Below are positions 25,446-48,073 of a stretch of 64,000 bases of DNA, in pieces; positions within the stretch are counted from its first letter, which is position 1; every line of letters starts with the position of its first letter. Source of the stretch: an uncultured Acidobacteriota bacterium. Lineage in GTDB: Bacteria > Acidobacteriota > Thermoanaerobaculia > UBA5066 > Gp7-AA6. The position numbers were made by a program, and so were the translations under genes. Location of the stretch: NCBI GenBank assembly GCA_963815655.1, contig CAWFHK010000001.1, positions 1,997,813-2,061,812 of the forward strand, written 5' to 3'. The notes below the pieces were generated by a model. It had not been told where the DNA came from. It saw nothing but the letters and a program-made list of their open reading frames with translations, and did no database searches.

Positions 25446-26378
25446 TCAGTGCTCGAGACTGAGCTCGACCTGTTCGGTATCGCCTGACTGGACGCTGACG
25501 TCCATCGAGCGATCCTTGAACCCCGGGCGAGAGACCGTCACCGTGTGCTTCCCGGGCGAGACGGCGATGCCGCGTTCGAGGGAATTGACCTCTTCGGCCG
25601 TGCCGATGAACCGGTTGTCCAGGTAAACGGCGGCATCGGAGGGTTCGACCGTCAGACGCAGGCGCGTCCTGGTGTCGCGCGGCGCGGTCTGCGCGGCGCC
25701 GCGCCAATCGTCCCCGGAACGGTCCCGGCGAGGCCGGCGGGCCGCCGGAGGGCGATCGCCCTCGGCGGGCGGAAGGTCTTCGTCGCCTCCCGCGGAAACG
25801 GACGCCTCCGGCGGCTGTGAAGGATCGACCGGCTCGACGGAGTTCCGGCGTTTTCCGAAGTACCGGTTCACTTCCCCTTGCGGCTTCGGCGTGTCGTAGG
25901 AGCCGTAGCGCCGGGCTCCGGGGACCTTGCGGAGCTTGTCCTTGTAGTCCACGTACATGCCGGGGCGGGAGTTCACCTCCCGGACGAGAGGCTCGTAGCC
26001 CTGGAGACGGAACTCGATGCGATAGTGGCCCGGCTTGAGGTAGAGAAAGTCCGGATAGCCGTCGAAGTCGTCGGCGCTCCCGATGTCGCGGCCATCCAGG
26101 TAGACGCGCGCCTCCTCGGGCGAGATGTCCGTATCAACCACTCCCCACGGCGAGGAGGGACCGTACGCGCGGGGACGGGAGTAACCGTCATAGCCTGGCC
26201 CGTACCAGCCCGGCCAACCCCCCCAGCCCCAACCCCAGCCGCCGCCGACGCCGATGAAGACGCGTGTCCGGCCGCCGAAGTGGCCACCGCCGTGACCGCC
26301 GGGAGCGGCTTGCATCAGCGCGGGAGGCATCAGGGTCAGCCCGAGCGCCAGAAGAAAAGCCTTGCTCAGTCGTTTCAT
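25446..26378 (-). CDS. Secreted Gly/Trp-rich protein with two PEGA domains
   Basis: Signal peptide MKRLSKAFLLALGLTLMPPALMQAAP; the PEGA motif (PxGxH) occurs twice: YLKPGHYRIEF and SPGKHTVTV. Confidence 0.7.
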   Translation of the reverse strand: MKRLSKAFLLALGLTLMPPALMQAAPGGHGGGHFGGRTRVFIGVGGGWGWGWGGWPGWYGPGYDGYSRPRAYGPSSPWGVVDTDISPEEARVYLDGRDIGSADDFDGYPDFLYLKPGHYRIEFRLQGYEPLVREVNSRPGMYVDYKDKLRKVPGARRYGSYDTPKPQGEVNRYFGKRRNSVEPVDPSQPPEASVSAGGDEDLPPAEGDRPPAARRPRRDRSGDDWRGAAQTAPRDTRTRLRLTVEPSDAAVYLDNRFIGTAEEVNSLERGIAVSPGKHTVTVSRPGFKDRSMDVSVQSGDTEQVELSLEH

Positions 26379-26527
26379 GGCAGTTGCCTCCCGCAGGCAA
26401 TCAAAAGCAAGACTAGCGCCAGATCGCGGCCCCGAGAGGACCCGAAACAACACCTTCAGAATCAACGGCTTGTGAGATCACTCCGGCGGCGACTGCGGAG
26501 CCGATGACCTCCCGAAGGGTCAGGACG

Positions 26528-27481
26528 TCACCTCGGAGCGGCGCAGAGGAGCGGCGCGGCCTTCTGCAGCCCGCGACGTATCAGGGCGCGGCTCAAGCCG
26601 CGCAGATAGTCCCGCCGCAGGACCCGATCGAGCGCGCTTCTGCCGCCCGGGATCTCCCACCGCTGGCAGAGGGAGGCCCAGCCGGCGAGGAGCCTGCCGC
26701 GGACGCGGCCTTCCTCCTGGAACTGGAGCGCCTGCGGCACGGCGAGGAAATCCCCGAGCTCAGGGTGCTTCTCGAAGAAGATCGCCGCCGCCTCGCCCGC
26801 CTTCTCCTGCCGGCGCCGGAACGACGCGAACGTGATGTCGTGGTAGTGCCGCGCCACTGCCTCGGGCCGGTAGACGATCTTCATTCCCATCCGCATCATC
26901 CGGTACGCGATCTCGATGTCTTCCCACGCGGCGTGGGGGAACGTCGTGTCGAAGAGGCCCGCTTCGCGAAGGAGCGAGCGCGGGAGCGAGATGTTCGACG
27001 TGTAGAAGAAATTGAAGGGGACGGACTCGGGGTCCTCGATCAGCCCGTAGCCGAACTGGAGGCCGTACTCGTTGATGTGGTGGAGGAAGGGAGAGACGCG
27101 GCGGTCCTGCGGCCAGGTCGTGTAGCCGAGCACCGCGACCGGATGCGGGCGCGGCTCCGCGTGCGTCCGGGCGTGGGCCGCGAGGAGCTCCGCCTCCGGG
27201 ACAGTATCGTCGCCGAGGAAGAGGACCGTGCGGCCCGCCGCCTCCTCCACGCCGCGGTTGCGGGCGGCCGCCGGCCCGGAGTTCTCCTGGCGAAAGCAGC
27301 GGAGGGGATAGGAGGGGGAGAAGGCGCGCAGCCGCGCGGGGGTCGAGTCGCGGGACCCGTCGTCCACGACGATCACCTCGAAGTCGGGGGGGGCCGCCTG
27401 GCGCTCCAGCGCGGCGAGGACGCGGACGAGCGTGTCGGGGCGCTCGAAAGTCGGGATCACGACGGAGAAGGAGAGCGTCAC
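26528..27481 (-). CDS. Family-2 glycosyltransferase
   Basis: VVIPTFERPDTLVRVL...VIVVDDGSRD...LFLGDD (GT-A DXD). Confidence 0.8.
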   Translation of the reverse strand: MTLSFSVVIPTFERPDTLVRVLAALERQAAPPDFEVIVVDDGSRDSTPARLRAFSPSYPLRCFRQENSGPAAARNRGVEEAAGRTVLFLGDDTVPEAELLAAHARTHAEPRPHPVAVLGYTTWPQDRRVSPFLHHINEYGLQFGYGLIEDPESVPFNFFYTSNISLPRSLLREAGLFDTTFPHAAWEDIEIAYRMMRMGMKIVYRPEAVARHYHDITFASFRRRQEKAGEAAAIFFEKHPELGDFLAVPQALQFQEEGRVRGRLLAGWASLCQRWEIPGGRSALDRVLRRDYLRGLSRALIRRGLQKAAPLLCAAPR

Positions 27482-28665
27482 GCGAAGATCTCCCCGAGCG
27501 TCGTCCGGACCAGGGCCGGCGCGCCCGACAGGAACTCCCGGAAGAAGTCGGAGTCGAGCCGCTCGTCCCCCGGGTAGGTCGGGACGAGCCTCAGCGGGAA
27601 CCGGGCGAAGATCTCCGAGTCCGGCCGGCGGCGCCCGGCCTGCACGGCCCGGCGCTTGGCGGCGAGGGCCGCTTGGTTGCGGTGGATCCAGAGGAGCGCC
27701 CTCAGGTGGGCGACCGTCAGGGGGTCCTCGACGGTGACCCTCCCGCCGGCCCCGTCGGCGCGGATGCCGAAGAGCCGGCGGAGGAAGGACGGGGCCGGGC
27801 GTCCCGCCGCGTAGGGGTCACGTCTCAATTCCGCGGCGCCGGGATTGCGCGATTCGAGCATCTCGGAGATCCGGAGAACGAACGCGGCCAGCACGGCCGG
27901 CATGAGGTCGTGAAAATGCTCGGCGTCGAAGTTCTTGTAGGCGGTCGCGAAGGCGTTCTTCTCGAAGAGGAAACCGCGGGAGAAGACGCCGAGGGCTTCG
28001 CCGGTCGCGCCGCCGCGGTGCCGCGCGACCGCCCGGGGCTCGGCGATGATCCTCCGCCCGAAGATCCACTGGCGCCAGCCGAAGTCCACGTCTTCGAGGT
28101 AGGCGAAGTAGTCGTCGTCGAAGCCGCCCGATTCGAGGAAGGCGTCCCGCCGGACGGACATCAGGCCGCCGCAGGCGAACAGTCTCTCTTCTCCCGGGAC
28201 CGCTTCCGGCAGCGCCTCGACCGGCCGCCCCACGTCCCTCTGGAAGGCATGGCCGTCGAAGGTAAGGAACCCGTCGGAAAAGTCGTTCTTCCGTCCCGTG
28301 ACGTCTACCAGCCGGCCGGCGGCCGCCACGACGTCCGGAGCGGCGTCCGAGAGAGCCGCCGCGAGGTGGCCGAGGGCATCGGGAAGCACGGAGGCGTCAT
28401 CGTTGACGAACGCGAGCAGCGGCGCCCGCGCCGCCTCCGCGCCCAGGCGGCAACCGGCCGCGAACCCCGCGTTGCGTCCGGCGACGACCCGTCGCACGTT
28501 CGGGTGCCGGCGGAGCACCTCCTCCATCGGCCGGCCCGCCGTGTTGTCCACGAGGATCGTCTCGAACGCGGCGCCGGAGGACGCGTCCAGAGCGTCGAGC
28601 GCCTCGAGCAGGTGCTCCTGCCCCCTGTGGTGCACCACGACAACCGACAGATCGGGCCGCGTCAT
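27478..28665 (-). CDS. Family-2 glycosyltransferase (rhamnosyltransferase-like)
   Basis: SVVVVHHRGQEHLLEAL...ILVDNTAGR...FVNDDASV; start overlaps the downstream gene's stop. Confidence 0.8.
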   Translation of the reverse strand: MTRPDLSVVVVHHRGQEHLLEALDALDASSGAAFETILVDNTAGRPMEEVLRRHPNVRRVVAGRNAGFAAGCRLGAEAARAPLLAFVNDDASVLPDALGHLAAALSDAAPDVVAAAGRLVDVTGRKNDFSDGFLTFDGHAFQRDVGRPVEALPEAVPGEERLFACGGLMSVRRDAFLESGGFDDDYFAYLEDVDFGWRQWIFGRRIIAEPRAVARHRGGATGEALGVFSRGFLFEKNAFATAYKNFDAEHFHDLMPAVLAAFVLRISEMLESRNPGAAELRRDPYAAGRPAPSFLRRLFGIRADGAGGRVTVEDPLTVAHLRALLWIHRNQAALAAKRRAVQAGRRRPDSEIFARFPLRLVPTYPGDERLDSDFFREFLSGAPALVRTTLGEIFA

Positions 28666-28688
28666 GCGATGGAAGAGTAATCCATGAG

Positions 28689-28775
28689 GTGACAGGTCGT
28701 AGGTGGTAGGTGGTAGGGGAAGATTGGAGCATTGGAACTCCGGTCCCTACCACCCATCACCTACGACCTACCACC
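28689..28775. repeat. Long imperfect hairpin of GGTGG/GTAGGTGG units (GGTGG-family, copy 1)
   Basis: Left arm gtgacaggtcgtaggtggtaggtggtaggg, ~26-nt loop, right arm ccctaccacccatcacctacgacctaccacc; ~24-bp stem. The same family occurs at 37534-37611. Confidence 0.7.
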
Positions 28776-30007
28776 TTCTTGCGGAGGCGCCGCCAGAGAG
28801 GCTGCGCTTCCGTACGAGGGAGAGGCATGCGGCCCGGATCCACGCGCGCTTCGCGACACCAGGCCGCCAGCGGGGCGGCGACCGCGGACCAGGCGCGGGC
28901 AGCGGCGAAGCGCCGCGCGGCCGTGACGGCCTTCTGCCGTTCGACGGAGTCCGTCAGCATCTGGGCGACGGCTTCCGCGAGCGCCGGGGCGGTCCTCGCG
29001 ACCCGCCGCCCGGCCCCGGCCTCCTCCAGTTGCCGCGCGAGCGGTCCGCCCGCGACCGAGACCGAAGGGACGCCTCCCCAGGCGGCGTCGAGCAACCGTG
29101 TGCGGAAGGCCAGGTCCCGTTCGAGGCCCTCCGAGGAGATGGAAACGAGCAGGTCCACCGCGGCATAGAGGTCGGGACGCGCGGCGTAGGGCAGCCAGGA
29201 AGAAAAGAGGATGGACCTTCCCTGCGGATCGATCTCCCGCGCGCGCTCGCGGGTGCGGGCATAAACGCGCTGCGGCGTCGTCTGCGGGTTCGGGTTCTCG
29301 AAGAAGACGAGCTTTGCCTCGGCGCACCGGCGCAGGACCCCCGGCCAGGCCTCGAGCAGCAGGTCCGGCTCGTACCAGTCGTAGATCCCTCCGAAGAGGG
29401 CGAGCGGCCCCTCGGTCGGAGAGCCGAGCAATCGGCGGCCCGCCGCGCGGTCGCCCGCGGCGGGCTCGGCCGGAACGCCGAACGGCACGGTCGCGAGGAG
29501 CCCGGAGAGCGTCGGGTCCGACGGGAAGTTCGAGGGACCGATCCGCCCGCGCGTGTAGAGCGCGCCCGCGTAGAAGAGACGCTGCTCTGCGGAAGCGCAC
29601 AGAAAGAAATCCGCCCGGTCGAGCGAGAGCTCGAGCGTCGCGCGGTCGTGCAGCGCCGTGCCCTCCCCGAGCGTCGAGGCATAGTGGAGGTTCTCGACGA
29701 AGAAGGGATCGTACAGGTCCGCCGCGACCGGGACGCCGGGCACCTGGTGGAACCACCAGTTGGCGGCATGGCCCGAAACGACCGCCGCGTCGGCGTTCAC
29801 GGCCGCGGCGGCGAGCCCGCCCGGCGGCGCCGCGACGACGGGGATGTCGCCCGCGGCGCCCGCGGCCTCGGCGGGGTCGTTGGCCACGAGGAGGCGCACG
29901 TCGAATTCGCCGCGGAGCGCCCGCGCGAGCTCCAGCGCGCGGATGCCCATCCCGGCCATCCTCGGCCGGATCGGCTCGGGGGCCAGGACCACGACCCGAC
30001 GCGTCAC
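28757..30007 (-). CDS. Family-1 (GT4-like) glycosyltransferase
   Basis: GTG start with GGAGGG 13 nt upstream; GT-B motifs (ALFGGIYDWYEPDLLLEAW, E-x7-E region DLLVSISSEGLERDLAFRTRLLDAAWGGVP). The track ORF's N-terminal ~270 aa are an artefact. Confidence 0.7.
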   Translation of the reverse strand: MTRRVVVLAPEPIRPRMAGMGIRALELARALRGEFDVRLLVANDPAEAAGAAGDIPVVAAPPGGLAAAAVNADAAVVSGHAANWWFHQVPGVPVAADLYDPFFVENLHYASTLGEGTALHDRATLELSLDRADFFLCASAEQRLFYAGALYTRGRIGPSNFPSDPTLSGLLATVPFGVPAEPAAGDRAAGRRLLGSPTEGPLALFGGIYDWYEPDLLLEAWPGVLRRCAEAKLVFFENPNPQTTPQRVYARTRERAREIDPQGRSILFSSWLPYAARPDLYAAVDLLVSISSEGLERDLAFRTRLLDAAWGGVPSVSVAGGPLARQLEEAGAGRRVARTAPALAEAVAQMLTDSVERQKAVTAARRFAAARAWSAVAAPLAAWCREARVDPGRMPLPRTEAQPLWRRLRKKVVGRR

Positions 30008-30027
30008 CCGGCGGCCCTCCGCGCCGC

Positions 30028-31962
30028 CTAGCGGCGGCCTCTCAGACGATCGGCGAGAAGGTGGAGCTTCCAGGTCCGCGACCGGTAGATCTGCGAGAGG
30101 GTCCCGTCGAGCCGCTCGACCTCCGCCTGGACCTCGGCGATCCTGCGGTTGTACTCCTCGTTGCTCGCGAAGAGCTCCGCCACGCGTTCGTGGACGAGCT
30201 CGTTTTCGGCGAGGAGGCGATCGCGTTCGGTCCGGAGGGCGGCGGATTCGGACTCGAGCGCGGCGACGTCCCGCTCGAGCTCTTCGCCCCGCTCCCTCGC
30301 GGCCGAGAGTTGCGCGGCGAGCTGCGCCGACCCCTGCTCGGCTCTCGCGAGCGTCGCCGCCAGGCGCCGGTGGCTCTCCCGTTGATAGCGCAGCTCGCCC
30401 TGCGAGATCCCGTCGCGGTCGGCGCTGTGGGAAATCTGCGCGCGGAACCGGTCGAAGACCCGCGCGAGCCCCTCCTCGGTTCGGCGGCCCGCGTAGCGCG
30501 CGTAGATCTCGGCGCGGGCCCGCTGGAACGCGTCCCGGCCCGCGGGCACGTGGAAAGGATCGCCTTCCGGACCTTCGAAGACCCGGTACTCGCAGGTCAC
30601 GGCGCGCACGTGCCGGAAGGCGGTCTCGAAGGAGAGACGGATGAGGAAATCCCAATCCTCCGAGTACTCCAGCTTCTCGTCGAATCCTCCGACGCCATCG
30701 AAGAGCGCGCGGGGCAGGAGCAGCGTGTGCAGCGGGATGTAGTTGGCGAGGAGCAGGTAGTCGGGATCGAAGTCGAGCGAGTATTGAAGGGTCCGGTGCA
30801 GCGGCTGCCATGACTCCTCGCGCCGCTCGTAGACCACGGTGACCGCGTCGGAGTAGACGACGGGCTCGGGACCGCTCCGGTGCGCCCGCAGGAGGCGATC
30901 GAGGTGGTCGGGATAGGTGAGGTCGTCGTCGTCCAGGAACGCGACGAGCTCCTGGCTTGCCATGGAGACACCCTGATTGGCCGCGTGCGAGCGGCCTCCG
31001 CGCTCCGGCAGCTCCTCCAGCATGAGCTCGAAGGCGCCGCGGAACGCCTCCCGCAGCCCGCCGACGGAAGCGCCGCCGTCGTTGACGAGCACGACCTGCG
31101 CGGGCCTCGCCGCCTGGCGGCGGAGGCTCTCCAGCGCCTCCTTCACGAGCGCCGGCCGGTTGCGCGTCCGGATGACGACGGAGATCGGCGCTTCCCCGCT
31201 CTCTCCCTCGCGGATCAGGGCCGGCCCGATCGAGCGACGGAACTCCTCCATCGATCGCGTCGAGGCCTCCGCGTAGTCGACGACGCGAAAGGCCTCCACG
31301 GGGCCCTCTCCCGCCAGGGTGAGCCTCCGGTAGGCGTTCAGCCCGCCGATCGCGCGGGCGTAGTCGCGCACCGCCTGCTGGGAGGCGTAAAGGGCGAGGG
31401 CTTCCTCCTTCAACCCCGAGACGCTCGCGATGTCCACGAGAGTGTCCGGAAGCAGCGGATGGGAGATCTCGTAGAAGGCCAGACGCAGGAAGCGGAATCG
31501 ACCGTGGTCCGGGTCTCCGGGACGGGACGCCGCGAGCTTCTCGTAGAGCGCTTCGGCGAGAGCCCGGTGGTCGGGGTGAATCTCGACCGGCGAGGGACAG
31601 AAGACCAGGTCGGGCCGGAACTCCCCGACGAGCGCGTCGAGCGCCGCGGCCAGCGCGCCGGCGCTCGCGGGAAGCCCGCGATCCGGCAGCGACCCGAAGA
31701 GGGGCGGTTCGAGGCCGAGAGTCTTCGCCGCCCTGCGCGATTCATCCCGCCGCTTCTCCCCGTAATCCTCCTCCTGCTCGGCGCCTTCCTGGCGCTTGCC
31801 GTCGGTCGCGATCCAGATCCGGATCGCCTCCGCGCCGGCGGCGTTCAAAGCGAGCGTTCCGCCGGCTCCGAGGATCTCGTCGTCGGGATGGGCGGCGAGG
31901 ACGAGGATGCGCGCGGCCGAGAGGTCCGTCGCCCGGTAGGGAATCAGGAACGCTTCATCCAT
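30028..31962 (-). CDS. Fusion protein: N-terminal PIG-L/LmbE-family N-deacetylase, central GT2 glycosyltransferase, C-terminal coiled coil
   Basis: ILVLAAHPDDEILGAGGT...HPDHRA (LmbE zinc motif), then ISVVIRTRNRPALVKEAL...VVLVNDGG...FLDDDD (GT2), then a heptad-rich tail. Confidence 0.75.
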   Translation of the reverse strand: MDEAFLIPYRATDLSAARILVLAAHPDDEILGAGGTLALNAAGAEAIRIWIATDGKRQEGAEQEEDYGEKRRDESRRAAKTLGLEPPLFGSLPDRGLPASAGALAAALDALVGEFRPDLVFCPSPVEIHPDHRALAEALYEKLAASRPGDPDHGRFRFLRLAFYEISHPLLPDTLVDIASVSGLKEEALALYASQQAVRDYARAIGGLNAYRRLTLAGEGPVEAFRVVDYAEASTRSMEEFRRSIGPALIREGESGEAPISVVIRTRNRPALVKEALESLRRQAARPAQVVLVNDGGASVGGLREAFRGAFELMLEELPERGGRSHAANQGVSMASQELVAFLDDDDLTYPDHLDRLLRAHRSGPEPVVYSDAVTVVYERREESWQPLHRTLQYSLDFDPDYLLLANYIPLHTLLLPRALFDGVGGFDEKLEYSEDWDFLIRLSFETAFRHVRAVTCEYRVFEGPEGDPFHVPAGRDAFQRARAEIYARYAGRRTEEGLARVFDRFRAQISHSADRDGISQGELRYQRESHRRLAATLARAEQGSAQLAAQLSAARERGEELERDVAALESESAALRTERDRLLAENELVHERVAELFASNEEYNRRIAEVQAEVERLDGTLSQIYRSRTWKLHLLADRLRGRR

Positions 31963-38722: not shown

Positions 38723-38813
38723 GAGAAAGGCGGTCTCATCACTCTGACTAACCGGGCCATTCTAGCGCCTGTTTCTACGGACACGGGGCTGCGAACGTCG
38801 GTCTCCACGCGCC

Positions 38814-38845
38814 CGCAAACAAAAGGCCCCGGCCGAGCCGGGGCC
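38814..38845 (-). terminator. Intrinsic terminator of the giant adhesin gene (GGCCCCGGC-UCG-GCCGGGGCC + UUUUGUUUG)
   Basis: Perfect 9-bp GC stem plus a U-tract on the minus transcript, 25 nt after the adhesin stop. Confidence 0.7.
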
Positions 38846-38869
38846 TTTCCCTTCATGGCGAAGTCGGGT

Positions 38870-43674: not shown

Positions 43675-43717
43675 ACGAGAAAAGAAGAGTGGGCGGGACT
43701 CTTCGTCCCGCCCACTC
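43675..43717 (-). terminator. Intrinsic terminator (GAGUGGGCGGGAC-loop-GUCCCGCCCACUC + UCUUCUUUUCU)
   Basis: 13-bp stem with a U-rich tail 3' of the 43729 stop on the minus transcript. Confidence 0.65.
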
Positions 43718-43728
43718 GAGGGAAACGA

Positions 43729-45330
43729 CTATGGCTGTGCCGGACCGGTGCCGACGAGCAGCGGAATCACGGGGACCGAATTCGTCACGCCCAGCGCGGC
43801 GGGATTCGGGCCGTAGCAGTTCGGAGGCCCTCCTGCGTTGAAGCACGGCACGTTGAGCGGCTGACAGTTCGTCGGATCGAGCTGGGCCGCCGGCACGCCG
43901 GCCGACAGGAACGCGGCAGCACCCGCGAAGTCGTACGTCACGTACGCCTGATCGAGGACACCACCGAAGGGACCACCCGTGTTGAAGAACTCCATGCTGA
44001 CCCAGCCAGCGGGCCAGGCCGGATGCGGGAAGCCCACGATCGATGTGCGCTGGGTCTCCAGCGGGAAGTTGAACGTCGGAGGCGTTCCGCACGGCGAAAC
44101 CGTGCAGCCCACGCTGACCGTGTTCTCATCTTCGTCGTAGAAGGCCAGAGCCACCTCGGTTTCCGAGGTGTTGCACTTGCCCGGGGTGTACCCGAGGAGA
44201 TCCTCGCGGCCGGTGGAGATACTGTCGGCTCCGGCCGAACCGCGCCACACGTTGAAGTAGGAGGTCGTCGCGCTGGCAGCGGCTCCCGGAGGCGGGGTCG
44301 TGCCGTCGAACCAACGCGCAGCGTACTTCAGGCCCAAGGGCTCACGCTGGTCGCCGCCGCCGCAATCGAACGCGGGCGGAGCGATGAAGCCGCCGCCGGT
44401 CGGGTTGAAGCAGCCGGGCCCATCGATTGCGTGCACGTAACGGCGGTAGAAGGTACGCCGTCCGGGGACGCTGGTGGTATTCGCGGAGGACAGAGCCGTA
44501 TAGTCAAACAGGGAAGGATCCGCCTCGATCGCGACGGCGGGGAACCCGCGAGTGCCGACGCCCGCGCCCGAGGTGTAGATGTAGTCGCCGAACAGGTTGT
44601 TCTCCATTCCGATCGCGTCGTTGGTGTAGTAGGCCGCGTCGTTCGGATTGGAGAGCGTGCAGTAGTTGGCGTGGTCGATCGTGATGTACCCGTGGATCGG
44701 GTTGGTGATCACGCCGTCCACGTCGCCGCACGTGAAGGTGTCCTTGGTCGTATCCAGCGAGTCGAGGACCTGGAACAGGAATGCGGCCGAGAAGGGTCCA
44801 GGCGGATACGACACGGTCGCGGAATTGTTGTCGAAGCTCGAGTTGGCCGGGAACTGAGGTCTGGCGCGCAGGTAACCGCCCGCCGCCGGATAGACCGGGG
44901 CGCTGGGGTTGCGCTGGCAGACATCGCCGTTGATCGTCACCTGGTTGGAGTCCTTGACCTCGGACACGTGATTCTGGTTGATCGGCGTGACCGGGAGGAA
45001 GCCCCGCAGCACCTGCGCCACCGAGAACGACTGGATGTCGAACCCGGTCAACGCGATGTTGAAGTCGAGGACCAGCTCGGTCCTCTCGTTCCACACGGAG
45101 ACGTGGGCGAGCATCGGCGCCGAGGAAGCGTTCCCGATCGTCACCAGCGTGTCGAGTGCCGTCGCGCCGGTGTTCAGGACCGTTCCATCCGCGTTGTAGG
45201 TCGCCTGGAAATAGGGAATGAGCAGCGTCGCAGCAGGACGCTGATCAATGGTACACGTGATGGCGCCCGCGCCGCTCGCGATCGCGAGCAAGGCGACGAC
45301 CGCCATACACGTCAGGAAGGTTTTCTTCAT
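43729..45330 (-). CDS. Exported Cys-rich hypothetical protein (533 aa)
   Basis: Signal peptide MKKTFLTCMAVVALLAIASGAGA; GGAGA Shine-Dalgarno; no recognisable catalytic domain; many paired Cys residues. Confidence 0.65.
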   Translation of the reverse strand: MKKTFLTCMAVVALLAIASGAGAITCTIDQRPAATLLIPYFQATYNADGTVLNTGATALDTLVTIGNASSAPMLAHVSVWNERTELVLDFNIALTGFDIQSFSVAQVLRGFLPVTPINQNHVSEVKDSNQVTINGDVCQRNPSAPVYPAAGGYLRARPQFPANSSFDNNSATVSYPPGPFSAAFLFQVLDSLDTTKDTFTCGDVDGVITNPIHGYITIDHANYCTLSNPNDAAYYTNDAIGMENNLFGDYIYTSGAGVGTRGFPAVAIEADPSLFDYTALSSANTTSVPGRRTFYRRYVHAIDGPGCFNPTGGGFIAPPAFDCGGGDQREPLGLKYAARWFDGTTPPPGAAASATTSYFNVWRGSAGADSISTGREDLLGYTPGKCNTSETEVALAFYDEDENTVSVGCTVSPCGTPPTFNFPLETQRTSIVGFPHPAWPAGWVSMEFFNTGGPFGGVLDQAYVTYDFAGAAAFLSAGVPAAQLDPTNCQPLNVPCFNAGGPPNCYGPNPAALGVTNSVPVIPLLVGTGPAQP

Positions 45331-45579
45331 TGAGATCTCCTCGTTACTGTTAACTGCGAAAAAACACGCTTGAGTTCCTTCCCCTCGCGCGATCCCATCA
45401 CCTCCCATATCTCAATTTTTTTCAGACCCTTGAAGTCCTTGATTAACGATACCGGAAGTCTTCGATCCTCCGTAGGTTTAGAGGCATCTTCGGACCTTCG
45501 GAAGCGGCTGTCAAGGGGAAAGTGTGAAAAATATGCTCCGAAATCATGGGGCTGGGGGTAAGTGGCCTGTCATCAGCCA

Positions 45580-47205
45580 CTAACGCCGGTTCAGGTAGAC
45601 GTTCCACCCCCCACGATCGTTTAGTCGGTAGGAGGCAACGGTCTTTGACAGGACGATGTCGGGACGCCCGTCGCCGTCGAGATCGGCGAACCGGATGCAC
45701 TGGCCGGGCGAGTCGAGCTTCGGTTCCTCGCTTTCGTCCATCTCCCCGAACGTGCCGTCCGGATGCTGGAAGAAGATCCTCAACCGGTCGAGCTCGCTGT
45801 CCGCGAAGGCAACGTCGTCCAGGCCATCCCCGTCCAGATCCCCCATCGCAAGCGCGTATTGGGCGCTGCGGCCCGATTTCTTCCGCCAGACCCGGTGGCG
45901 CGTCCAGGTCCCCTTCTCGTAGCTGTAGAGAGTGATGCCGGTCGCGCGCGCCACCTCCGGTTCGTTGGTCATCATGTAGTAGGCGTCGGCGAAGGTCGGG
46001 ATTCGGGCCTTTCCCAGGGTGCCCGGCACCGCGGCGAAATGGTAGGAGTAGACCTCGAGCTCCGGGAAACGGACCGGTTCGAAGCGGCCGTTGCCCGTAT
46101 TCCTCCAGAGGAGCGTATTCGCTCCGATGAAGTGGCTTCCCGACAGAATGTCCTTTCGGCCGTCACCGTCGAAATCCCAGCCGGCCAGCGAATTGGAGTA
46201 GAGGCCGACGAAACTGTCCGGCTCGTACTGCCACCCGTCGGCACCCCGATAGAGATAGACCCGGACCTGGTGCGTGTCCGTCGGGCCGCCGCTGTCCGTC
46301 GCGGCGACGATGTCGAGCTTGCCGTCTCCGTCCGCATCGGCGAGCACGACGGCCTGCGAAGAGAAGTCCCGAGTCGGAAGCCCCCGGCGCACCACGCGAA
46401 ACGTTCCCTTCCCATCTCCGAACAACGCCACCACGCCGGCGCCATGAGAAGCGGCGACCACGTCCGCGCGGCCGTCCCCGTCGATGTCGCCGACCGCGAC
46501 TCCACCGTAATCGAGGGAGAACGCGGAGTTGGGACTTCCGTCCTCGATGAAGTTGAGCCCCCAGGCCGAAAAGTGCCCCTTCCCGTCGCCGAGCCAGATG
46601 TGGAGCCTCGACTCGCCCAGCCGCGAAGGGGGAGCGACGATGTCGGGAATCCCGTCTCCGTTCATGTCCGCGATGACGAACGACGCGCGCCACAGGCCGC
46701 TCGACGGCAGGCCGGCCGCCGAGACCTCCTCGAGCCGGATGCGGCCCCGCTCGCGTGCCGGCGAGAGGTCTTCGAAGTCGGAGAGAGCCGGGCCGGCCGG
46801 AGTCGGCGTCGTTCCCGGTATGGATGGGACGGCGGAGGACGCGGTCGTTTCCTGGCCGGCGGGTGTGGGAGTGGGAGACCGCTGCAAGGCCTTCTCGATC
46901 GCTTCCGACTCAGCGTTTCGCTTGTACGTGTAGACGTAGTAGTACTTATCGTCCTCCTTGAAGAATTCCACCGGATGGGGGATCAGCATGTGCCGGAAGT
47001 GCCTGTCGTCGACTCGAATGTACTCGTCCTTGGGAAACCGCTCGACGATGTGCATGTCGTCCTCTTCGATGATGTTCGGGTTCGTGCGGGACAGCGGCGG
47101 CTTCGTCGGCGTCGGCGGCGGCAGGGACGCTCTCGGAGTCGGCGCCGTGCACGCGAGGGGCATCAACAAGGCCGAGACGAGCAGGCAGGGTCGGATGAAC
47201 TTCAC
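45580..47205 (-). CDS. FG-GAP/VCBS-repeat exported (lipo)protein
   Basis: GTG start with AGGAGG 9 nt upstream; signal MKFIRPCLLVSALLMPLAC; multiple DxDGDGxxD FG-GAP repeats. Confidence 0.75.
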   Translation of the reverse strand: MKFIRPCLLVSALLMPLACTAPTPRASLPPPTPTKPPLSRTNPNIIEEDDMHIVERFPKDEYIRVDDRHFRHMLIPHPVEFFKEDDKYYYVYTYKRNAESEAIEKALQRSPTPTPAGQETTASSAVPSIPGTTPTPAGPALSDFEDLSPARERGRIRLEEVSAAGLPSSGLWRASFVIADMNGDGIPDIVAPPSRLGESRLHIWLGDGKGHFSAWGLNFIEDGSPNSAFSLDYGGVAVGDIDGDGRADVVAASHGAGVVALFGDGKGTFRVVRRGLPTRDFSSQAVVLADADGDGKLDIVAATDSGGPTDTHQVRVYLYRGADGWQYEPDSFVGLYSNSLAGWDFDGDGRKDILSGSHFIGANTLLWRNTGNGRFEPVRFPELEVYSYHFAAVPGTLGKARIPTFADAYYMMTNEPEVARATGITLYSYEKGTWTRHRVWRKKSGRSAQYALAMGDLDGDGLDDVAFADSELDRLRIFFQHPDGTFGEMDESEEPKLDSPGQCIRFADLDGDGRPDIVLSKTVASYRLNDRGGWNVYLNRR

Positions 47206-47284
47206 AGGACCTCCTCTTACCGGATTCGAGTCTCGAATTCCGCCGCTCCCAACCGCCGCCGCCGGCGCATTCTTCCCTGCGCGC

Positions 47285-48073
47285 TCAGAGCAGGTCCGCA
47301 AAATGCGGCCGGGCCCGCAGGAACAGCGCCGAGGCCAGAACGACGGCGACACCGGAAAAGACCGTCAGGTACAGGACCGACGCGGCTTCGGGGAAGACGT
47401 GCAGCGTAAAAGCGCGGCGATACCACTCGACCAGGTGCGCGATCGGATTGACCGCGAGGATCCAGCGGTAGCGCGACGGCATGAGGCCGGCCGGATAGAC
47501 GATCGGAGTCGCGTAGAAAAGGACGGTCAACGCGATGCCGATCCCGTGCGCCACGTCTCGAAGGAAAGTCGTGACCGTCGCCGCGAAGCACGCGACTCCG
47601 AACGTCAAGGTCGTTTGAACGAGGAGGGCGGGCAGCGCGAGGAGTGTCCACGGAAGGGAGAGGTGTCCGAGCCAGGCGAGGTAGATCGCGAAGATGCCGA
47701 AGGCGATGACCTGGTTGACAACCGCCGCCAGGACGACCGAGAGGATCAGAGTCTCCACCGGGAAGACGGTCTTCTTGACCATGGCCGCGTTGTCGGTCAG
47801 GACCGACGAGGCCCGCCAGATCCCTTCCTGGATGGCCATCCAGGGCAGCAGCCCGGCCAGCAGGAACTCCGGAAAGCCGGCAAACCCCTTCTCGACCGGG
47901 ATCCGGAGGATCAATCCGAAGACCCAGGCGTAGAGCAGGAGCCAGAGAACCGGCTGGCCAAAGGCCCAGAAGACACCCAGCCCCGAGCCGGCGTACCGCG
48001 CCCGGATGTCCCGCACAACCATCTCTTTAAGGAGAAAGAGGCGGGCGGAGAGTCTTTTCCTGTTGCTTGACAT
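47285..48073 (-). CDS. wzm: ABC-2 type polysaccharide/O-antigen export permease (Wzm/KpsM-like)
   Basis: 262 aa with 6 TM segments and an ABC-2 signature region (LNPIAHLVEWYR). Confidence 0.8.
   Translation of the reverse strand: MSSNRKRLSARLFLLKEMVVRDIRARYAGSGLGVFWAFGQPVLWLLLYAWVFGLILRIPVEKGFAGFPEFLLAGLLPWMAIQEGIWRASSVLTDNAAMVKKTVFPVETLILSVVLAAVVNQVIAFGIFAIYLAWLGHLSLPWTLLALPALLVQTTLTFGVACFAATVTTFLRDVAHGIGIALTVLFYATPIVYPAGLMPSRYRWILAVNPIAHLVEWYRRAFTLHVFPEAASVLYLTVFSGVAVVLASALFLRARPHFADLL

What the first reader, a model, noticed from the sequence alone, without database searches (positions are those of the whole stretch)
25446..48073. 22.6-kb unidirectional supercluster resembling an ABC-transporter-dependent, methyl-capped glycan / surface-protein glycosylation system with wzm and wzt split by 10 kb
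All 15 genes from wzm (48073) to the PEGA protein (25446) are on the minus strand, mostly with overlapping stops and starts. Wzt carries the C-terminal carbohydrate-binding extension that, in E. coli O8/O9a and Geobacillus S-layer glycan systems, recognises a methylated or phosphorylated chain terminator. Immediately downstream is a methyltransferase-GT1 fusion, the WbdD/WsaE-type architecture that caps glycans by methylation. Further downstream are GT2 x3, GT1, a GNAT and an LmbE-deacetylase-GT2 fusion, pointing to N-deacetylated/re-acylated amino sugars. Unusually, wzm is separated from wzt by three exoprotein genes (FG-GAP lipoprotein, Cys-rich protein, a 1540-aa PKD adhesin with TPTPTP linkers typical of O-glycosylation sites) and an RRE-radical SAM maturase, and the cluster ends with a PEGA protein. 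The glycan may therefore be destined for these proteins as a surface or S-layer-like glycoprotein system rather than for LPS. No Wzy_C-type oligosaccharyltransferase or WaaL ligase lies in the window.
Basis: partly seen in the sequence, partly recalled or inferred. Interest (0 to 1): 0.72.

Follow-up and report, generated by a model that had tools for sequence, protein, structure and literature searches.

The report
Class-wide glycan export and exoprotein locus
This is a real gene cluster, conserved across the acidobacterial class Thermoanaerobaculia, that joins an O-antigen-type ABC glycan exporter and sugar-building enzymes (including an unusual radical enzyme) to three separately transcribed secreted proteins; it is an unusual variant of a known pathway, not a new kind of system.

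Summary
The genes exist as described, but there are 14, not 15, all on the minus strand. Wzm and Wzt both match the Aquifex O-antigen transporter best. The Wzt C-terminal domain belongs to the Wzt_C carbohydrate-binding family: 29 of 30 orthologues hit it, though the window copy is sub-threshold.

The wzm/wzt split is ancestral. The order wzm, FG-GAP lipoprotein, Cys-rich protein, giant adhesin, rSAM, wzt, glycan genes recurs in about 80 species-level MAGs and in a relative with only 41% Wzt identity.

1. Conserved terminators follow the Cys-rich and adhesin genes, and conserved promoter-like boxes precede the Cys-rich gene and rSAM. wzm and wzt are therefore predicted to lie in different transcription units.
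2. The "RRE-rSAM maturase" is a BtrN-like, single-auxiliary-cluster (Twitch) enzyme. Distant relatives are fused to GT2, GT4 or methyltransferase domains and sit beside PIG-L–GT2, GNAT and GT4 genes, so it belongs to the glycan module.
3. The methyltransferase is absent from 7 of 69 loci, yet the Wzt binding domain stays conserved. A methyl cap is therefore unproven.

No ligase, oligosaccharyltransferase or initiating transferase lies in the window. Glycosylation of the exoproteins remains speculation.

The parts
48124..48528 (+). XRE-family HTH regulator, divergent from wzm (context; candidate regulator)
   Evidence: Pfam HTH_3 3.3e-13. The same divergent gene is present in L001-L003.
48437..49471 (+). 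TPR protein downstream of the HTH gene (context; true start probably later than 48437)
   Evidence: Pfam TPR_12 and others. Conserved next to wzm in most loci.
47285..48073 (-). Wzm, ABC-2 permease of the glycan exporter
   Evidence: ABC2_membrane 8.9e-17. Best PDB match is Aquifex aeolicus Wzm 6m96_B/7k2t, 1.7e-20. Orthologues are 53-99% identical.
45580..47205 (-). FG-GAP/VCBS beta-propeller lipoprotein
   Evidence: FG-GAP_3 3.3e-41. GTG start with SD AGAGGAGG. Signal sequence with a conserved Cys and a Pro/Thr linker in about 19 of 22 orthologues. No terminator follows it.
45485..45548 (-). Conserved promoter region of the Cys-rich gene: upstream inverted repeat (45527-45548), -35 TTGACA (45508-45513), 17 nt spacer, -10-like GAAGAT (45486-45491)
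   Evidence: Alignment of 46 intergenic regions: CTTGAC and the ATGA..AGCATA block are kept in at least 80%. Coordinates. Promoter function is inferred.
45331..45406 (-). Conserved 5' leader of the Cys-rich gene, with an invariant GGGAGGTGATGGGATCG block (45390-45406) that can pair with GATCTCA next to the start codon
   Evidence: A similar motif (GGGAGGTGATGCAATCG) is present in L089, where the protein is only 29% identical. No Rfam match. No covariation, because all 7 predicted pairs are invariant.
43729..45330 (-). 533-aa secreted Cys-rich protein ('CysR') of unknown fold, with 7 conserved Cys and invariant acidic motifs (GDQRE, DEDEN, ETQ)
   Evidence: No Pfam or NCBIfam family. 432 homologues, none with a family or name. 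Alignment. AF2 model pLDDT 44.6 and no fold match.
43677..43717 (-). Strong intrinsic terminator 12 nt after the CysR stop (13-bp G+C stem plus T-run)
   Evidence: A hairpin of -21 to -30 kcal/mol on the same GGGCGGG/CCCGCCC stem core, plus a T-run, in about 34 of 45 loci, where CysR is 43-71% identical in most. Also present in L089.
38870..43486 (-). 1538-aa secreted giant protein: unassigned N-terminal 430 aa, TPTPTP linkers, 2 PKD, 1 Flg_new_2, and two copies of an unassigned ~130-aa domain
   Evidence: PKD_4 3.4e-18 and Flg_new_2 7.8e-9. No family for the N-terminal, middle or C-terminal parts. Internal repeat E 2e-5. The least conserved gene, about 35% identity.
38816..38848 (-). Intrinsic terminator after the giant-protein gene
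   Evidence: GGCCCCGG...CCGGGGCC plus T-run. A comparable hairpin is present in about 38 of 52 loci.
38758..38763 (-). Conserved TAGAAT (-10-like) box about 35 nt upstream of the rSAM start
   Evidence: Kept in at least 80% of 43 aligned intergenic regions. Function is inferred.
37613..38722 (-). Radical SAM enzyme with one Twitch-type auxiliary cluster (BtrN-like) and a conserved 85-aa N-terminal domain
   Evidence: Radical_SAM 5e-22 and SPASM 2.5e-7. BtrN is the only PDB hit, and both the core and the auxiliary-Cys region align. Cys pattern C292-x21-CC-x44-C-x2-C. Orthologues are 66-98% identical. Fused or linked to glycan enzymes elsewhere.
36243..37499 (-). Wzt, ABC ATPase with a C-terminal carbohydrate-binding domain (residues ~260-400)
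   Evidence: ABC_tran 3.6e-21. Wzt_C scores 17.2 bits here, but 29 of 30 orthologues hit it. Best PDB match is full-length Aquifex Wzt 8dku/7k2t, profile E 8.5e-81, aligned to residue 315 of the chain. Binding domain 59-86% identical across the class.
34027..36246 (-). Unassigned 170-aa N-terminal region + class I methyltransferase + GT4, fused in this lineage; this is the variable cassette of the locus
   Evidence: Methyltransf_23 1.7e-7 and Glyco_trans_1_4 3.6e-15. PDB 3cc8 3.5e-17 and PimA 1.8e-6, no WbdD hit. Separate genes in L002 and L003. MT absent in 7 of 69 loci.
32969..34032 (-). GT2 glycosyltransferase (GT2a)
   Evidence: Glycos_transf_2 5.2e-12. Relatives at 30-36% identity in L084, L086, L087 and L089.
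32035..33018 (-). Eis-type GNAT N-acyltransferase (Acetyltransf_9)
   Evidence: 7.1e-13. A weak Eis match. Fused to PIG-L-GT2 in L086.
30028..31962 (-). PIG-L/LmbE de-N-acetylase + GT2 + ~120-aa C-terminal coiled-coil-like tail
   Evidence: PIG-L 1.4e-28 and GT2 1.1e-16. Weak hits to coiled-coil families (Macoilin, SMC) over residues 500-630. PDB TT1542, BshB and PglI. Adjacent to or near the rSAM in L084, L086 and L087.
28757..30031 (-). GT4 glycosyltransferase (GT4b; exact start uncertain)
   Evidence: Glyco_trans_1_4 2.8e-6 and MshA-like 1.2e-7. 39% relative in L084.
27478..28665 (-). GT2 glycosyltransferase (GT2b)
   Evidence: Glycos_transf_2 2.2e-13. About 70% identity across the class.
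26528..27481 (-). GT2 glycosyltransferase (GT2c, EpsD-like)
   Evidence: Glycos_transf_2 1.5e-24. EpsD 200.9 bits, below the 370 cut-off. A 54%-identical domain is fused to the rSAM in L084.
25446..26378 (-). Secreted protein with two PEGA domains, last gene of the block
   Evidence: PEGA 8e-17. Follows GT2c in L038, L061, L065, L068, L071, L072, L075 and L079.

Best explanation
The locus is the Thermoanaerobaculia version of an ABC-transporter-dependent envelope-glycan pathway, and it is inherited vertically.

Proposed mechanism:
1. On the cytoplasmic face, GT2 and GT4 enzymes build a conserved glycan containing an amino sugar on a lipid carrier. The initiating enzyme is encoded elsewhere.
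2. The PIG-L-GT2 fusion adds a GlcNAc-type residue and removes its N-acetyl group.
3. The Eis-type GNAT re-acylates the free amine.
4. The BtrN-like Twitch radical SAM enzyme abstracts a hydrogen from a sugar carbon and oxidises or rearranges that residue.
5. A variable cassette next to wzt (a methyltransferase in about 90% of lineages, here fused to a GT4) adds a further decoration.
6. The coiled-coil tail on the PIG-L-GT2 protein is the likely chain-length ruler.
7. The finished chain is recognised through its terminal structure by the conserved Wzt C-terminal binding domain and exported by Wzm2Wzt2.

Three secreted proteins are encoded between wzm and wzt: an FG-GAP lipoprotein, a probably abundant Cys-rich protein, and a giant PKD protein. 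The Cys-rich and giant-protein genes end in their own conserved terminators, and the Cys-rich gene has its own promoter-like box; the FG-GAP gene appears to belong to the wzm unit. These proteins are envelope partners of the exported glycan (acceptor, anchor or scaffold), not substrates of the rSAM.

Shown: family assignments, synteny, fusions, terminators and conserved motifs. Inferred: every chemical step, the ruler, the cap, and the link between the glycan and the exoproteins.
For: - Transporter: Wzm and Wzt each match the same solved O-antigen transporter best.
- Binding domain: Wzt_C is detected in 29 of 30 orthologues.
- Coupling: wzt, MT-GT4, GT2a and GNAT overlap, as do GT2b and GT2c.
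- Synteny: the whole gene order is kept in about 80 species-level Thermoanaerobaculia genomes. The core FG-GAP, CysR, giant protein, rSAM, Wzt order is kept in L089, which has 41% Wzt and 29% CysR identity.
- rSAM chemistry: BtrN is its only PDB relative, with matching auxiliary-cluster Cys spacing. BtrN oxidises an aminocyclitol (PMC9012708).
- rSAM fusions: homologues at 34-42% identity are fused to a class I MT, GT2, GT4+GT2, an FkbM MT or a HAD domain.
- Recurring module: the set GT2a, GNAT, PIG-L-GT2, rSAM and GT2c, with GT4b in L084 and an MT in L087, recurs in the unrelated clusters L084 and L087; L086 has GT2a, GNAT, PIG-L-GT2 and rSAM. These include a GT2c-rSAM fusion and a PIG-L-GT2-GNAT fusion.
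- rSAM position: within the class it sits between GNAT and LmbE-GT2 in 8 loci, or between the MT and GT2a in 2.
- Ruler: coiled-coil terminator or ruler proteins are a hallmark of this pathway type (PMC11231755). The only coiled-coil-like segment in this cluster is the PIG-L-GT2 tail. The PIG-L-GT2 of the non-ABC cluster L084 is 473 aa and lacks it.
- Transcription signals: conserved terminators and promoter-like boxes flank the exoprotein genes.
Against: - No initiating phosphoglycosyl transferase, ligase, oligosaccharyltransferase, LCP, OPX/PCP or nucleotide-sugar gene is in the window. Neither the carrier nor the destination is known.
- The window's own Wzt_C score is below Pfam's cut-off.
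- wzm and wzt, which must assemble 2:2, are predicted to be transcribed separately. This is odd for one transporter.
- The rSAM N-terminal domain is predicted, at low confidence, as two strands plus three helices. That is compatible with a peptide-binding wHTH.
- Both structure models were poor (pLDDT 54.9 and 44.6), so no fold evidence backs the rSAM or CysR assignments.
- The coiled coil was inferred from composition and weak family hits only.
- Linkage of the exoproteins to the glycan rests on conserved gene order alone.
Confidence: 0.62

Rival explanations
1. Surface or S-layer-like glycoprotein system. The exported glycan is transferred in the periplasm or at the surface onto the Cys-rich protein, the giant PKD protein or both. 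The Cys-rich protein would be the abundant, monocistronically expressed lattice or coat protein, as SgsE is for the Geobacillus slg cluster.
For: - The exoprotein genes are locked between wzm and wzt across the class and in L089.
- CysR has a perfect -35 box, a long conserved leader containing an extended Shine-Dalgarno-like motif, a strong SD, and a very strong conserved terminator. S-layer genes next to slg clusters are likewise monocistronic and independent (PMC2943079).
- The wzt-MT-GT order mirrors wzt-wsaE, and a TPR gene lies nearby, as wsaA does (PMC2943079).
- GT-C enzymes (PMT_2, YfhO-like) sit next to the rSAM or its module in L074, L080, L085, L087 and L089.
Against: - No oligosaccharyltransferase (Wzy_C/WsaB/PglL type) or GT-C enzyme is in the window.
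- CysR carries 7 conserved cysteines and many invariant polar or acidic motifs, and is 42-88% conserved. That looks more like an enzyme or specific binder than a fast-evolving lattice protein.
- No fold or family could be assigned.
- No glycosylation evidence is possible from sequence.
Confidence: 0.22
2. The radical SAM enzyme is a protein or peptide maturase, RRE-guided or QhpD/anSME-like. It would install cross-links or modified residues in the neighbouring Cys-rich protein before export, and the exoprotein block would be a separate maturation system.
For: - It is adjacent to the exoprotein block in most loci.
- There is a Pfam SPASM hit.
- The N-terminal 25-85 is modelled as strand-strand-helix-helix-helix.
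- CysR has conserved Cys and acidic residues.
Against: - There is no PqqD/RRE hit.
- Only one auxiliary cluster's worth of Cys is present, with BtrN-like spacing.
- BtrN is the sole PDB relative at E up to 1. No anSME, PqqE, SuiB, CteB or QhpD hit appeared.
- The N-terminal domain is retained in homologues fused to GT2, GT4 or MT domains.
- The module recurs in clusters with no CysR, FG-GAP or PKD homologue.
- The rSAM moves in among the GT genes in 10 loci, and away from the whole cluster in L074 and L080.
- The flanking intergenic gaps (113 and 147 nt) are too short for a precursor gene, and the 147-nt gap is filled by the terminator and promoter-like box.
Confidence: 0.07
3. Two functionally unrelated units sit side by side. 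The three exoproteins are ordinary adhesins or envelope proteins that became fixed between wzm and wzt in the class ancestor. Their order persists through low rearrangement rates, with no mechanistic link to the glycan.
For: - Separate promoters and terminators are predicted.
- The exoproteins are absent from all non-Thermoanaerobaculia clusters carrying the glycan module.
- G+C is lower in the exoprotein part (0.63-0.66 against 0.70-0.73).
- The neighbourhood (TPR, SpoIIE) is also syntenic, so the whole region is simply stable.
Against: - The glycan part itself does rearrange (rSAM moves; the MT cassette is swapped, inserted or lost) while the exoprotein block is never displaced from between wzm and wzt.
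- The arrangement survives to 29-41% protein identity in L089.
- Splitting an obligate two-gene transporter without selection for the arrangement would be expected to be reversed or to decay.
Confidence: 0.15

Closest known systems
ABC-transporter-dependent O-antigen export with a CBD-bearing Wzt (Aquifex aeolicus WzmWzt, PDB 7k2t/8dku; E. coli O9a/K. pneumoniae O3 type)
   Same: Wzm and Wzt are the best sequence matches to this transporter. The C-terminal Wzt_C domain is present. A modifying enzyme gene is coupled to wzt, and a coiled-coil-bearing biosynthetic protein is present in the cluster (PMC11231755).
   Different: - wzm and wzt are separated by 10 kb holding three exoprotein genes with their own terminators.
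- No WecA or WaaL is nearby.
- The cluster is class-wide conserved rather than serotype-variable.
- The binding domain is as conserved as the ATPase domain.
- The coiled coil is on a deacetylase-GT2 protein, not on the methyltransferase.
- A radical SAM enzyme is part of the set.
Geobacillus stearothermophilus NRS 2004/3a S-layer glycosylation (slg) cluster (wzm-wzt-wsaE, sgsE nearby; PMC2943079)
   Same: - wzt is followed directly by a protein with an N-terminal methyltransferase and a GT domain.
- Secreted structural-type genes are adjacent and independently transcribed.
- A TPR gene is in the neighbourhood.
- ORFs overlap in the biosynthetic part.
   Different: - There is no WsaB-type oligosaccharyltransferase, no WsaP and no rml genes.
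- The MT here is fused to one GT4, not two rhamnosyltransferase domains, and the fusion is lineage-specific.
- The organism is a diderm acidobacterium.
- The secreted proteins are not known S-layer proteins.
- wzm is split from wzt.
Coiled-coil terminator/ruler proteins WbdD, WbbB and K. pneumoniae O7 ORF6 (PMC11231755)
   Same: Catalytic domains are followed by a long coiled-coil-like segment in a protein of an ABC-dependent cluster. O7 ORF6 also combines an MT with GT2 modules.
   Different: - There is no sequence similarity to WbdD.
- There is no kinase domain.
- The coiled coil is C-terminal to PIG-L and GT2 domains.
- Ruler function is untested.
BtrN, the Twitch-domain radical SAM dehydrogenase of butirosin biosynthesis (PDB 4m7t; PMC9012708)
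   Same: It is the only solved relative (E 2e-6). Both the CxxxCxxC core and the auxiliary-cluster Cys pattern (C-x~20-C-x~44-C-x2-C) align. Both are accompanied in their pathways by a GT4 and a PIG-L/LmbE-type deacetylase; for butirosin this is from my own knowledge.
   Different: - The match is only about 30 bits.
- There is an extra conserved 85-aa N-terminal domain.
- The context is an envelope glycan, not an aminoglycoside.
- Substrate and reaction are unknown.
GlcNAc-transfer / de-N-acetylation / N-acylation modules (MshA-MshB-MshD, BshA-BshB, PIG-A/PIG-L)
   Same: GT4 (weak MshA and BshA matches), PIG-L/LmbE deacetylase (BshB1 2.2e-20) and GNAT are encoded together.
   Different: All scores are far below the equivalog cut-offs. 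The deacetylase is fused to a GT2. The products here are exported by Wzm/Wzt, not soluble thiols or GPI.

Membership tests
ABC-transporter-dependent glycan export (Wzm/Wzt) | ABC-2 permease and ATPase homologous to Wzm and Wzt | tested here: met
   Best PDB hits are the Aquifex WzmWzt chains: Wzt 3.1e-67 (profile 8.5e-81) and Wzm 1.7e-20.
ABC-transporter-dependent glycan export (Wzm/Wzt) | wzm and wzt adjacent and co-transcribed | tested here: not met
   They are 10 kb apart. Two conserved intrinsic terminators and two conserved promoter-like boxes lie between them. Transcription itself was not measured.
Wzt with terminator-recognising carbohydrate-binding domain (Pfam Wzt_C, PF14524) | C-terminal domain matching Wzt_C | tested here: met
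   The window copy scores 17.2 bits, below the 30.4 cut-off. However, 29 of 30 orthologues hit it (best 1.3e-8), and the profile aligns into the Aquifex binding domain.
Wzt with terminator-recognising carbohydrate-binding domain (Pfam Wzt_C, PF14524) | Binds a specific non-reducing-end cap (methyl, methyl-phosphate, Kdo) | not testable with these tools
   Indirect only. The binding domain stays 79-81% identical in loci lacking the MT, which argues that the ligand does not depend on that MT.
WbdD-type terminator | Methyltransferase (with or without kinase) followed by a coiled-coil ruler and a membrane-binding C-terminus | tested here: not met
   No WbdD hit in PDB at E up to 0.01. No kinase family hit. 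No coiled-coil-like segment in the MT-GT4 protein. The MT is absent in 7 of 69 loci.
WsaE-type MT-GT fusion | N-terminal O-methyltransferase fused to the polymerising GT domains, encoded directly after wzt | tested here: inconclusive
   The architecture MT + one GT4 directly after wzt is present here and in L001. The two are separate genes in L002 and L003. No WsaE sequence was available for comparison.
S-layer/protein O-glycosylation system | Oligosaccharyltransferase (Wzy_C/PglL/WsaB) or GT-C transferase | tested here: not met
   None among the ORFs scanned across the 64-kb window. The rest of the genome was not available.
S-layer/protein O-glycosylation system | Glycosylated target protein | not testable with these tools
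   Only features typical of high expression for CysR and TPTPTP linkers in the giant protein.
RRE-dependent radical SAM/SPASM RiPP maturase | PqqD-like RRE domain | tested here: not met
   No PqqD family hit at E up to 0.01. The low-confidence model shows a strand-strand-helix-helix-helix N-terminus. The domain is retained in GT- and MT-fused homologues.
RRE-dependent radical SAM/SPASM RiPP maturase | Full SPASM domain (7 Cys, two auxiliary clusters) | tested here: not met
   Only C292, C314, C315, C360 and C363 follow the core. Their spacing matches the single-cluster Twitch domain of BtrN (PMC9012708).
RRE-dependent radical SAM/SPASM RiPP maturase | Adjacent precursor peptide gene | tested here: not met
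   The flanking gaps are 147 and 113 nt. The first is filled by the conserved terminator and the TAGAAT box.
Twitch-domain sugar-modifying radical SAM enzymes (BtrN-like) | CxxxCxxC core plus a four-Cys single auxiliary cluster; carbohydrate-type substrate | tested here: inconclusive
   The sequence features are met and the genomic and fusion context is glycan-related. The match is only about 30 bits, and the substrate cannot be tested.

The most novel reading that the evidence does not exclude
The rSAM, PIG-L-GT2 and GNAT trio may make a radical-modified, N-acylated amino sugar that is itself the conserved chain-terminating cap read by the Wzt binding domain. The PIG-L-GT2 coiled coil would act as the ruler. 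The three exoproteins between wzm and wzt would form a previously undescribed periplasm-to-surface acceptor or anchoring apparatus. In that apparatus the abundant Cys-rich protein would be either a new kind of glycan ligase or the glycosylated coat protein of Thermoanaerobaculia, replacing the WaaL/OTase/OPX components that are missing from the locus.
Probability: 0.15. Interest if true: 0.8.

Novelty: new variant of a known kind. Interest (0 to 1): 0.55.

Why it matters
Thermoanaerobaculia are abundant in soils and sediments and almost uncultured, and nothing is known about their envelope. This locus is as conserved as a housekeeping operon, so it probably specifies a defining surface polymer of the class.

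Two leads go beyond this taxon.
- A BtrN-like Twitch radical SAM family is repeatedly fused or linked to glycosyltransferases, PIG-L deacetylases and sugar methyltransferases in several unrelated clusters. This points to radical chemistry in envelope-glycan synthesis, which has hardly been explored.
- An obligate two-gene ABC exporter has been kept split, over deep evolutionary time, by independently transcribed secreted-protein genes. That arrangement is a testable case of coupling between glycan export and its extracytoplasmic partners.

Tried and rejected
- **Exact look-up of the window rSAM.** It is not in the collection.
- **AlphaFold models.** The rSAM model (16-sequence alignment) reached pLDDT 54.9 and the CysR model (29 sequences) 44.6. 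Foldseek against PDB then gave only generic radical SAM barrels (TM at most 0.38) for the rSAM, and nothing below E 0.02 for CysR. No fold conclusions were drawn.
- **A shared domain between CysR and the giant protein's repeated domain.** BLASTP gave E 0.77 and hhalign probability 3.6%. Rejected.
- **A sigma-54 promoter in the FG-GAP-CysR gap.** The spacing of the conserved blocks does not fit the -24/-12 pattern (by eye). Rejected in favour of a sigma-70-type TTGACA/GAAGAT pair.
- **A uORF in the CysR leader.** The ATG lies 2 nt after the GGAGG, and indels break the frame between loci. Unlikely.
- **Leader structure.** RNAalifold predicts one long-range 7-bp helix, but all pairs are invariant, so there is no covariation support. 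Rfam gave no match.
- **WbdD or kinase similarity of the MT protein.** None was found.
- **Literature searches.** Searches for Thermoanaerobaculia plus radical SAM, and for rSAM/PIG-L/polysaccharide, found nothing relevant.
- **Gene-calling caveat.** ORFs listed in high-GC antisense frames, such as 24137-25369, were treated as spurious on GC3 grounds.

Full report
**1. The observation**

The window is about 63-73% G+C. I therefore called genes by third-position G+C rather than by ORF length and translated the candidates. From 48073 down to 25446 there are 14 minus-strand genes, not 15.

Pfam and NCBIfam give, in transcription order:
- Wzm (ABC2_membrane)
- an FG-GAP protein
- a 533-aa secreted Cys-rich protein with no family ("CysR")
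- a 1538-aa protein with two PKD domains and one Flg_new_2 domain
- Radical_SAM+SPASM
- Wzt (ABC_tran; Wzt_C only 17.2 bits against a cut-off of 30.4)
- a Methyltransf_23-GT4 fusion
- GT2
- an Acetyltransf_9 GNAT
- a PIG-L-GT2 fusion with a coiled-coil-like tail
- GT4
- GT2
- GT2
- a PEGA protein

Overlapping stop and start codons occur within the wzt-to-GT2c stretch (wzt/MT-GT4, MT-GT4/GT2a, GT2a/GNAT, GT2b/GT2c). The wzm-to-wzt part has gaps of roughly 80-250 nt. The rest of the window encodes housekeeping and regulatory genes. It holds no phosphoglycosyl transferase, ligase, OTase, LCP, OPX/PCP or nucleotide-sugar gene.

**2. Where it comes from and how conserved it is**

The window's rSAM is not itself in the protein collection. 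It has more than 700 homologues, and the best 120 are 76-98% identical. The few sources that name them call them Thermoanaerobaculia or Acidobacteriota.

A scan of species-representative genomes found 107 loci. All 80 that were returned are Thermoanaerobaculia or Acidobacteriota MAGs (taxonomy).

tblastn of the window proteins against those loci shows a consistent order wherever enough flank is available: TPR (divergent), wzm, FG-GAP, CysR, giant protein, rSAM, wzt, MT cassette, GT2a, GNAT, LmbE-GT2, GT4b, GT2b, GT2c, PEGA, and further on a SpoIIE phosphatase.

Typical identities to the window are:

| Protein | Identity |
|---|---|
| rSAM | 66-98% |
| Wzt | 60-99%, mostly 70-85% |
| GT2b, GT2c | ~70% |
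| GT4b | ~66% |
| LmbE-GT2, GNAT | ~62% |
| GT2a | ~58% |
| FG-GAP | ~54% |
| CysR | ~47% |
| MT | ~45% |
| giant protein | ~35% |

A much deeper relative, L089, has rSAM at 50%, Wzt at 41%, and CysR and FG-GAP at 29-30% identity. It still has FG-GAP, a CysR-like protein, a giant protein, rSAM and Wzt (with Wzt_C) in the same order. The wzm/wzt split is therefore ancestral and vertically inherited. It is not an insertion.

**3. The transporter**

Wzt and Wzm each find the Aquifex aeolicus WzmWzt O-antigen transporter as their best solved relative. A profile built from 30 orthologues aligns to the full-length Aquifex Wzt as far as residue 315, which is inside its carbohydrate-binding domain, with E 8.5e-81. 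Pfam Wzt_C is detected in 29 of 30 orthologues, with a best E of 1.3e-8.

I accept that the C-terminal domain is a Wzt_C-type binding domain. The window copy alone would not have passed the curated threshold.

**4. The cap question**

The gene after wzt is the variable part of the locus.
- 62 of 69 loci have the MT plus one more gene.
- 7 loci have no MT.
- In L038, wzt is followed directly by GT2a.
- L057 carries a 556-aa protein with no family plus a 2OG-Fe(II) oxygenase instead of the MT; L053 and L063 have gaps of similar size that I did not scan.
- L073 has a similar pair (a 537-aa no-family protein plus a 2OG-Fe(II) oxygenase) inserted on the opposite strand between rSAM and wzt.

The window/L001 MT-GT4 fusion is lineage-specific. 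L002 and L003 encode the two as separate genes, and the next relative's MT is only 56% identical although its flanking genes are above 90%.

The Wzt binding domain is almost as conserved as the ATPase domain (59-86% against 71-89%). It is 79-81% identical in the MT-less loci L035, L053, L063 and L081. In the enterobacterial paradigm, binding domains diverge with the cap. A conserved domain beside an optional MT therefore argues that the recognised terminus is made by the conserved enzymes, not by this MT.

The MT has no detectable similarity to WbdD; its best PDB match is 3cc8, a putative methyltransferase. It also has no coiled coil. Work from the Whitfield laboratory finds the terminator on a coiled-coil ruler protein in every system studied (PMC11231755). 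Here the only coiled-coil-like segment is the ~120-residue tail of the LmbE-GT2 protein, which gives weak Macoilin, SMC and DUF3450 hits. The homologous PIG-L-GT2 in a cluster that uses Wzy_C and Bac_transf instead of an ABC transporter is 473 aa and lacks that tail. This suggests a ruler on the deacetylase-GT2 protein, but it is inference from few cases.

**5. The radical SAM enzyme**

The evidence points elsewhere.

- *Sequence features.* No PqqD/RRE family is hit. After the CxxxCxxC core there are only five cysteines (C292, C314/315, C360, C363).
- *Solved relatives.* With either the single sequence or the family profile, BtrN is the only PDB hit up to E = 1. Both the core and the auxiliary-cluster region align. 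BtrN is a Twitch (single auxiliary cluster) enzyme that oxidises the aminocyclitol 2-deoxy-scyllo-inosamine (PMC9012708).
- *Wider family.* An exhaustive search of 1.8 billion representatives finds 774 relatives below 1e-10. Many align from about residue 20, so the N-terminal domain is part of the family.
- *Fusions.* Several relatives are fusion proteins: class I MT-rSAM (P0248, P0249), GT2-rSAM (P0280), GT4-GT2-rSAM (P0299), FkbM MT-rSAM (P0387) and HAD-rSAM (P0338).
- *Genomic contexts of distant relatives*:
  - L084 has a GT2c-like-rSAM fusion followed by PIG-L-GT2, together with GT2a-, GNAT- and GT4b-like genes, Bac_transf, Wzy_C and an SLH protein.
  - L086 has a PIG-L-GT2-GNAT fusion, then the rSAM, then a GT4.
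  - L087 has GT2c-like, GT2a-like, Acetyltransf_9, PIG-L-GT2, PMT_2, a sulfatase-like gene, the rSAM, a GT4 and an MT-GT2.
- *Position within the class.* The rSAM lies between GNAT and LmbE-GT2 in eight loci and between the MT and GT2a in two. In L074 and L080 it sits away from the cluster, next to a PMT_2-type GT-C enzyme and, in L080, a methyltransferase.
- *No precursor gene.* The gaps flanking the rSAM in the window are too short for a precursor gene, and the upstream one is filled by a terminator and a promoter-like box.

I conclude that the rSAM belongs to a widespread, uncharacterised glycan-building module with a core of GT2a, GNAT, PIG-L-GT2, rSAM and GT2c; GT4b and an MT accompany it in some clusters. 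It probably acts on a sugar, most plausibly the de-N-acetylated amino sugar made by its frequent neighbour. The reaction itself is unknown. My AlphaFold model was too poor to add anything (pLDDT 54.9).

**6. The exoprotein block and its transcription signals**

*After CysR.* Twelve nucleotides after the CysR stop lies a 13-bp G+C hairpin followed by a T-run (window 43677-43717). A hairpin of -21 to -30 kcal/mol on the same GGGCGGG/CCCGCCC stem core is found after the CysR gene in about 34 of 45 loci, in most of which CysR is only 43-71% identical. It is also present in L089.

*After the giant-protein gene.* A second terminator follows this gene in about 38 of 52 loci. Downstream of it is a conserved TAGAAT box about 35 nt before the rSAM start.

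*After the FG-GAP gene.* No terminator follows it.

*Upstream of CysR.* The FG-GAP-CysR gap is conserved at the nucleotide level in 46 sequences. It contains:
- an inverted-repeat-like block (ATGA-N6-AGCATA)
- a perfect TTGACA, then 17 nt, then GAAGAT or GATTAT
- a leader of about 150 nt containing the invariant GGGAGGTGATGGGATCG
- a strong GAGGAG Shine-Dalgarno sequence

The leader motif contains GGAGGTGAT, the extended complement of the 16S rRNA 3' tail (my own knowledge). This recalls STAB-SD mRNA stabilisers (Agaisse and Lereclus 1996, as cited in PMC3997798). It can also pair with GATCTCA next to the start codon, but that helix is invariant, so there is no covariation evidence. Rfam has no match.

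Together these features predict four transcription units: wzm-FG-GAP, CysR, the giant-protein gene, and rSAM-wzt through GT2c (possibly including PEGA). They also predict that CysR is an abundantly expressed monocistronic gene. This is a prediction from sequence; no expression data were available.

*What the proteins are.*
- CysR has a Sec signal peptide, seven conserved cysteines and invariant motifs such as GDQREPLGLKYAARWF, DEDEN and ETQ. No family, name, fold or solved relative could be assigned.
- The FG-GAP protein is a lipoprotein by its conserved N-terminal Cys.
- The giant protein has an internal duplication of an unassigned ~130-aa domain. It is unrelated to CysR.

**7. Interpretation**

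The core claim is well supported by homology, synteny and fusions: this is an ABC-transporter-dependent assembly and export system for an amino-sugar-containing glycan, with a Wzt that bears a binding domain.

In the Geobacillus slg system the S-layer gene is adjacent, monocistronic and independently transcribed, and wzt is followed by the MT-GT protein WsaE (PMC2943079). CysR's expression-type signals fit that picture. However, the defining oligosaccharyltransferase is missing from the window, and CysR's conservation pattern looks more enzyme-like. Nothing in sequence can show glycosylation. I give that reading about 0.2.

The maturase reading of the rSAM is largely excluded (about 0.07). A purely historical juxtaposition cannot be excluded (about 0.15). 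It is disfavoured because the glycan genes rearrange around a never-displaced exoprotein block, and because the arrangement survives to 29-41% identity.

**8. Novelty and score**

The pathway type is known. What is new is the following:
- a class-wide organisation with an obligate transporter pair split by independently transcribed exoprotein genes
- a Twitch radical SAM family tied to glycosyltransferases across unrelated clusters
- a coiled coil on a deacetylase-GT2 protein
- a conserved binding domain beside an optional methyltransferase

I found no literature on any of these. I rate it a new variant of a known kind, with interest 0.55.

Noticed in passing
window 45331-45548 (minus strand); same region in 46 loci and L089:1372-1660: The intergenic region upstream of the Cys-rich gene is conserved at the nucleotide level across the class. 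It holds an inverted-repeat-like ATGA-N6-AGCATA block, a perfect TTGACA/-10 pair, and a leader with an invariant GGGAGGTGATGGGATCG. That motif is the extended complement of the 16S rRNA 3' end and can pair with GATCTCA at the start codon. No Rfam family matches and there is no covariation. It may be an mRNA stabiliser or a translational control element.
   Followed up: partly
L057:12374-14758; L073:11106-13439 (opposite strand); possibly L053 and L063 (not scanned): In L057, which lacks the methyltransferase, the slot after wzt holds a 556-aa protein with no Pfam family plus a 235-aa 2OG-Fe(II) oxygenase. In L073 a similar pair (537 aa plus oxygenase) is inserted on the opposite strand between rSAM and wzt. 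L053 and L063 also lack the MT and have gaps of similar size. This looks like an alternative decoration cassette.
   Followed up: partly
L074:10001-14338 and L080:3311-11858: In two Thermoanaerobaculia genomes the rSAM orthologue (67% identity) has left the cluster. It sits next to an amidohydrolase and a PMT_2-type GT-C glycosyltransferase, plus a small class I methyltransferase and an FG-GAP/ASPIC protein in L080. PMT_2 or YfhO-like GT-C genes also neighbour the module in L085, L087 and L089.
   Followed up: partly
window 48124-50571 (+): A divergent unit next to wzm encodes an XRE-type HTH regulator, a TPR protein and a 367-aa secreted protein with no Pfam or NCBIfam family. HTH and TPR are conserved beside wzm in related loci, and L002 also has a 362-aa no-family gene in the corresponding position. 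The HTH is a candidate regulator, perhaps acting at the inverted repeat upstream of CysR.
   Followed up: no
window 40493-41035 and 38873-39985 (minus strand; giant protein residues ~848-975 and ~1313-1440): The giant PKD protein contains two copies of an unassigned ~130-residue domain with a W-x-T-D-[IL]-x-I-x-N motif (BLASTP E 2e-5). Its first 430 and last 371 residues match no Pfam family.
   Followed up: partly
window 15002-17593, 18027-19574, 21192-23810, 57199-61373, 62840-63997: The flanks are unusually rich in signalling genes. There are three GAF-SpoIIE (PP2C) phosphatases, one with PDZ and multiple transmembrane segments. There is also a STAS protein with an anti-sigma-type HATPase kinase, two sigma-54 activators and a PDZ-PAS histidine kinase. 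This suggests partner-switching and sigma-54 control in the neighbourhood.
   Followed up: no
window 38000-50000 versus 26000-36000: G+C falls to 0.63-0.66 over the exoprotein genes, wzm and the divergent unit, compared with 0.70-0.73 over the glycosyltransferase genes. Because the arrangement is ancestral, this more likely reflects amino-acid composition (Thr/Ser/Asn-rich secreted proteins) than recent transfer.
   Followed up: no
window 5747-5820 (+): A tRNA gene is the only Rfam match above the gathering score in the whole window.
   Followed up: no
L084:308-1276 and 8001-9890: One distant cluster carries two paralogues of the rSAM: one free-standing (31% identity) and one fused to a GT2c-like domain. 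It also carries an SLH-domain protein, Bac_transf and Wzy_C. The same glycan module can therefore be plugged into a non-ABC export route.
   Followed up: partly
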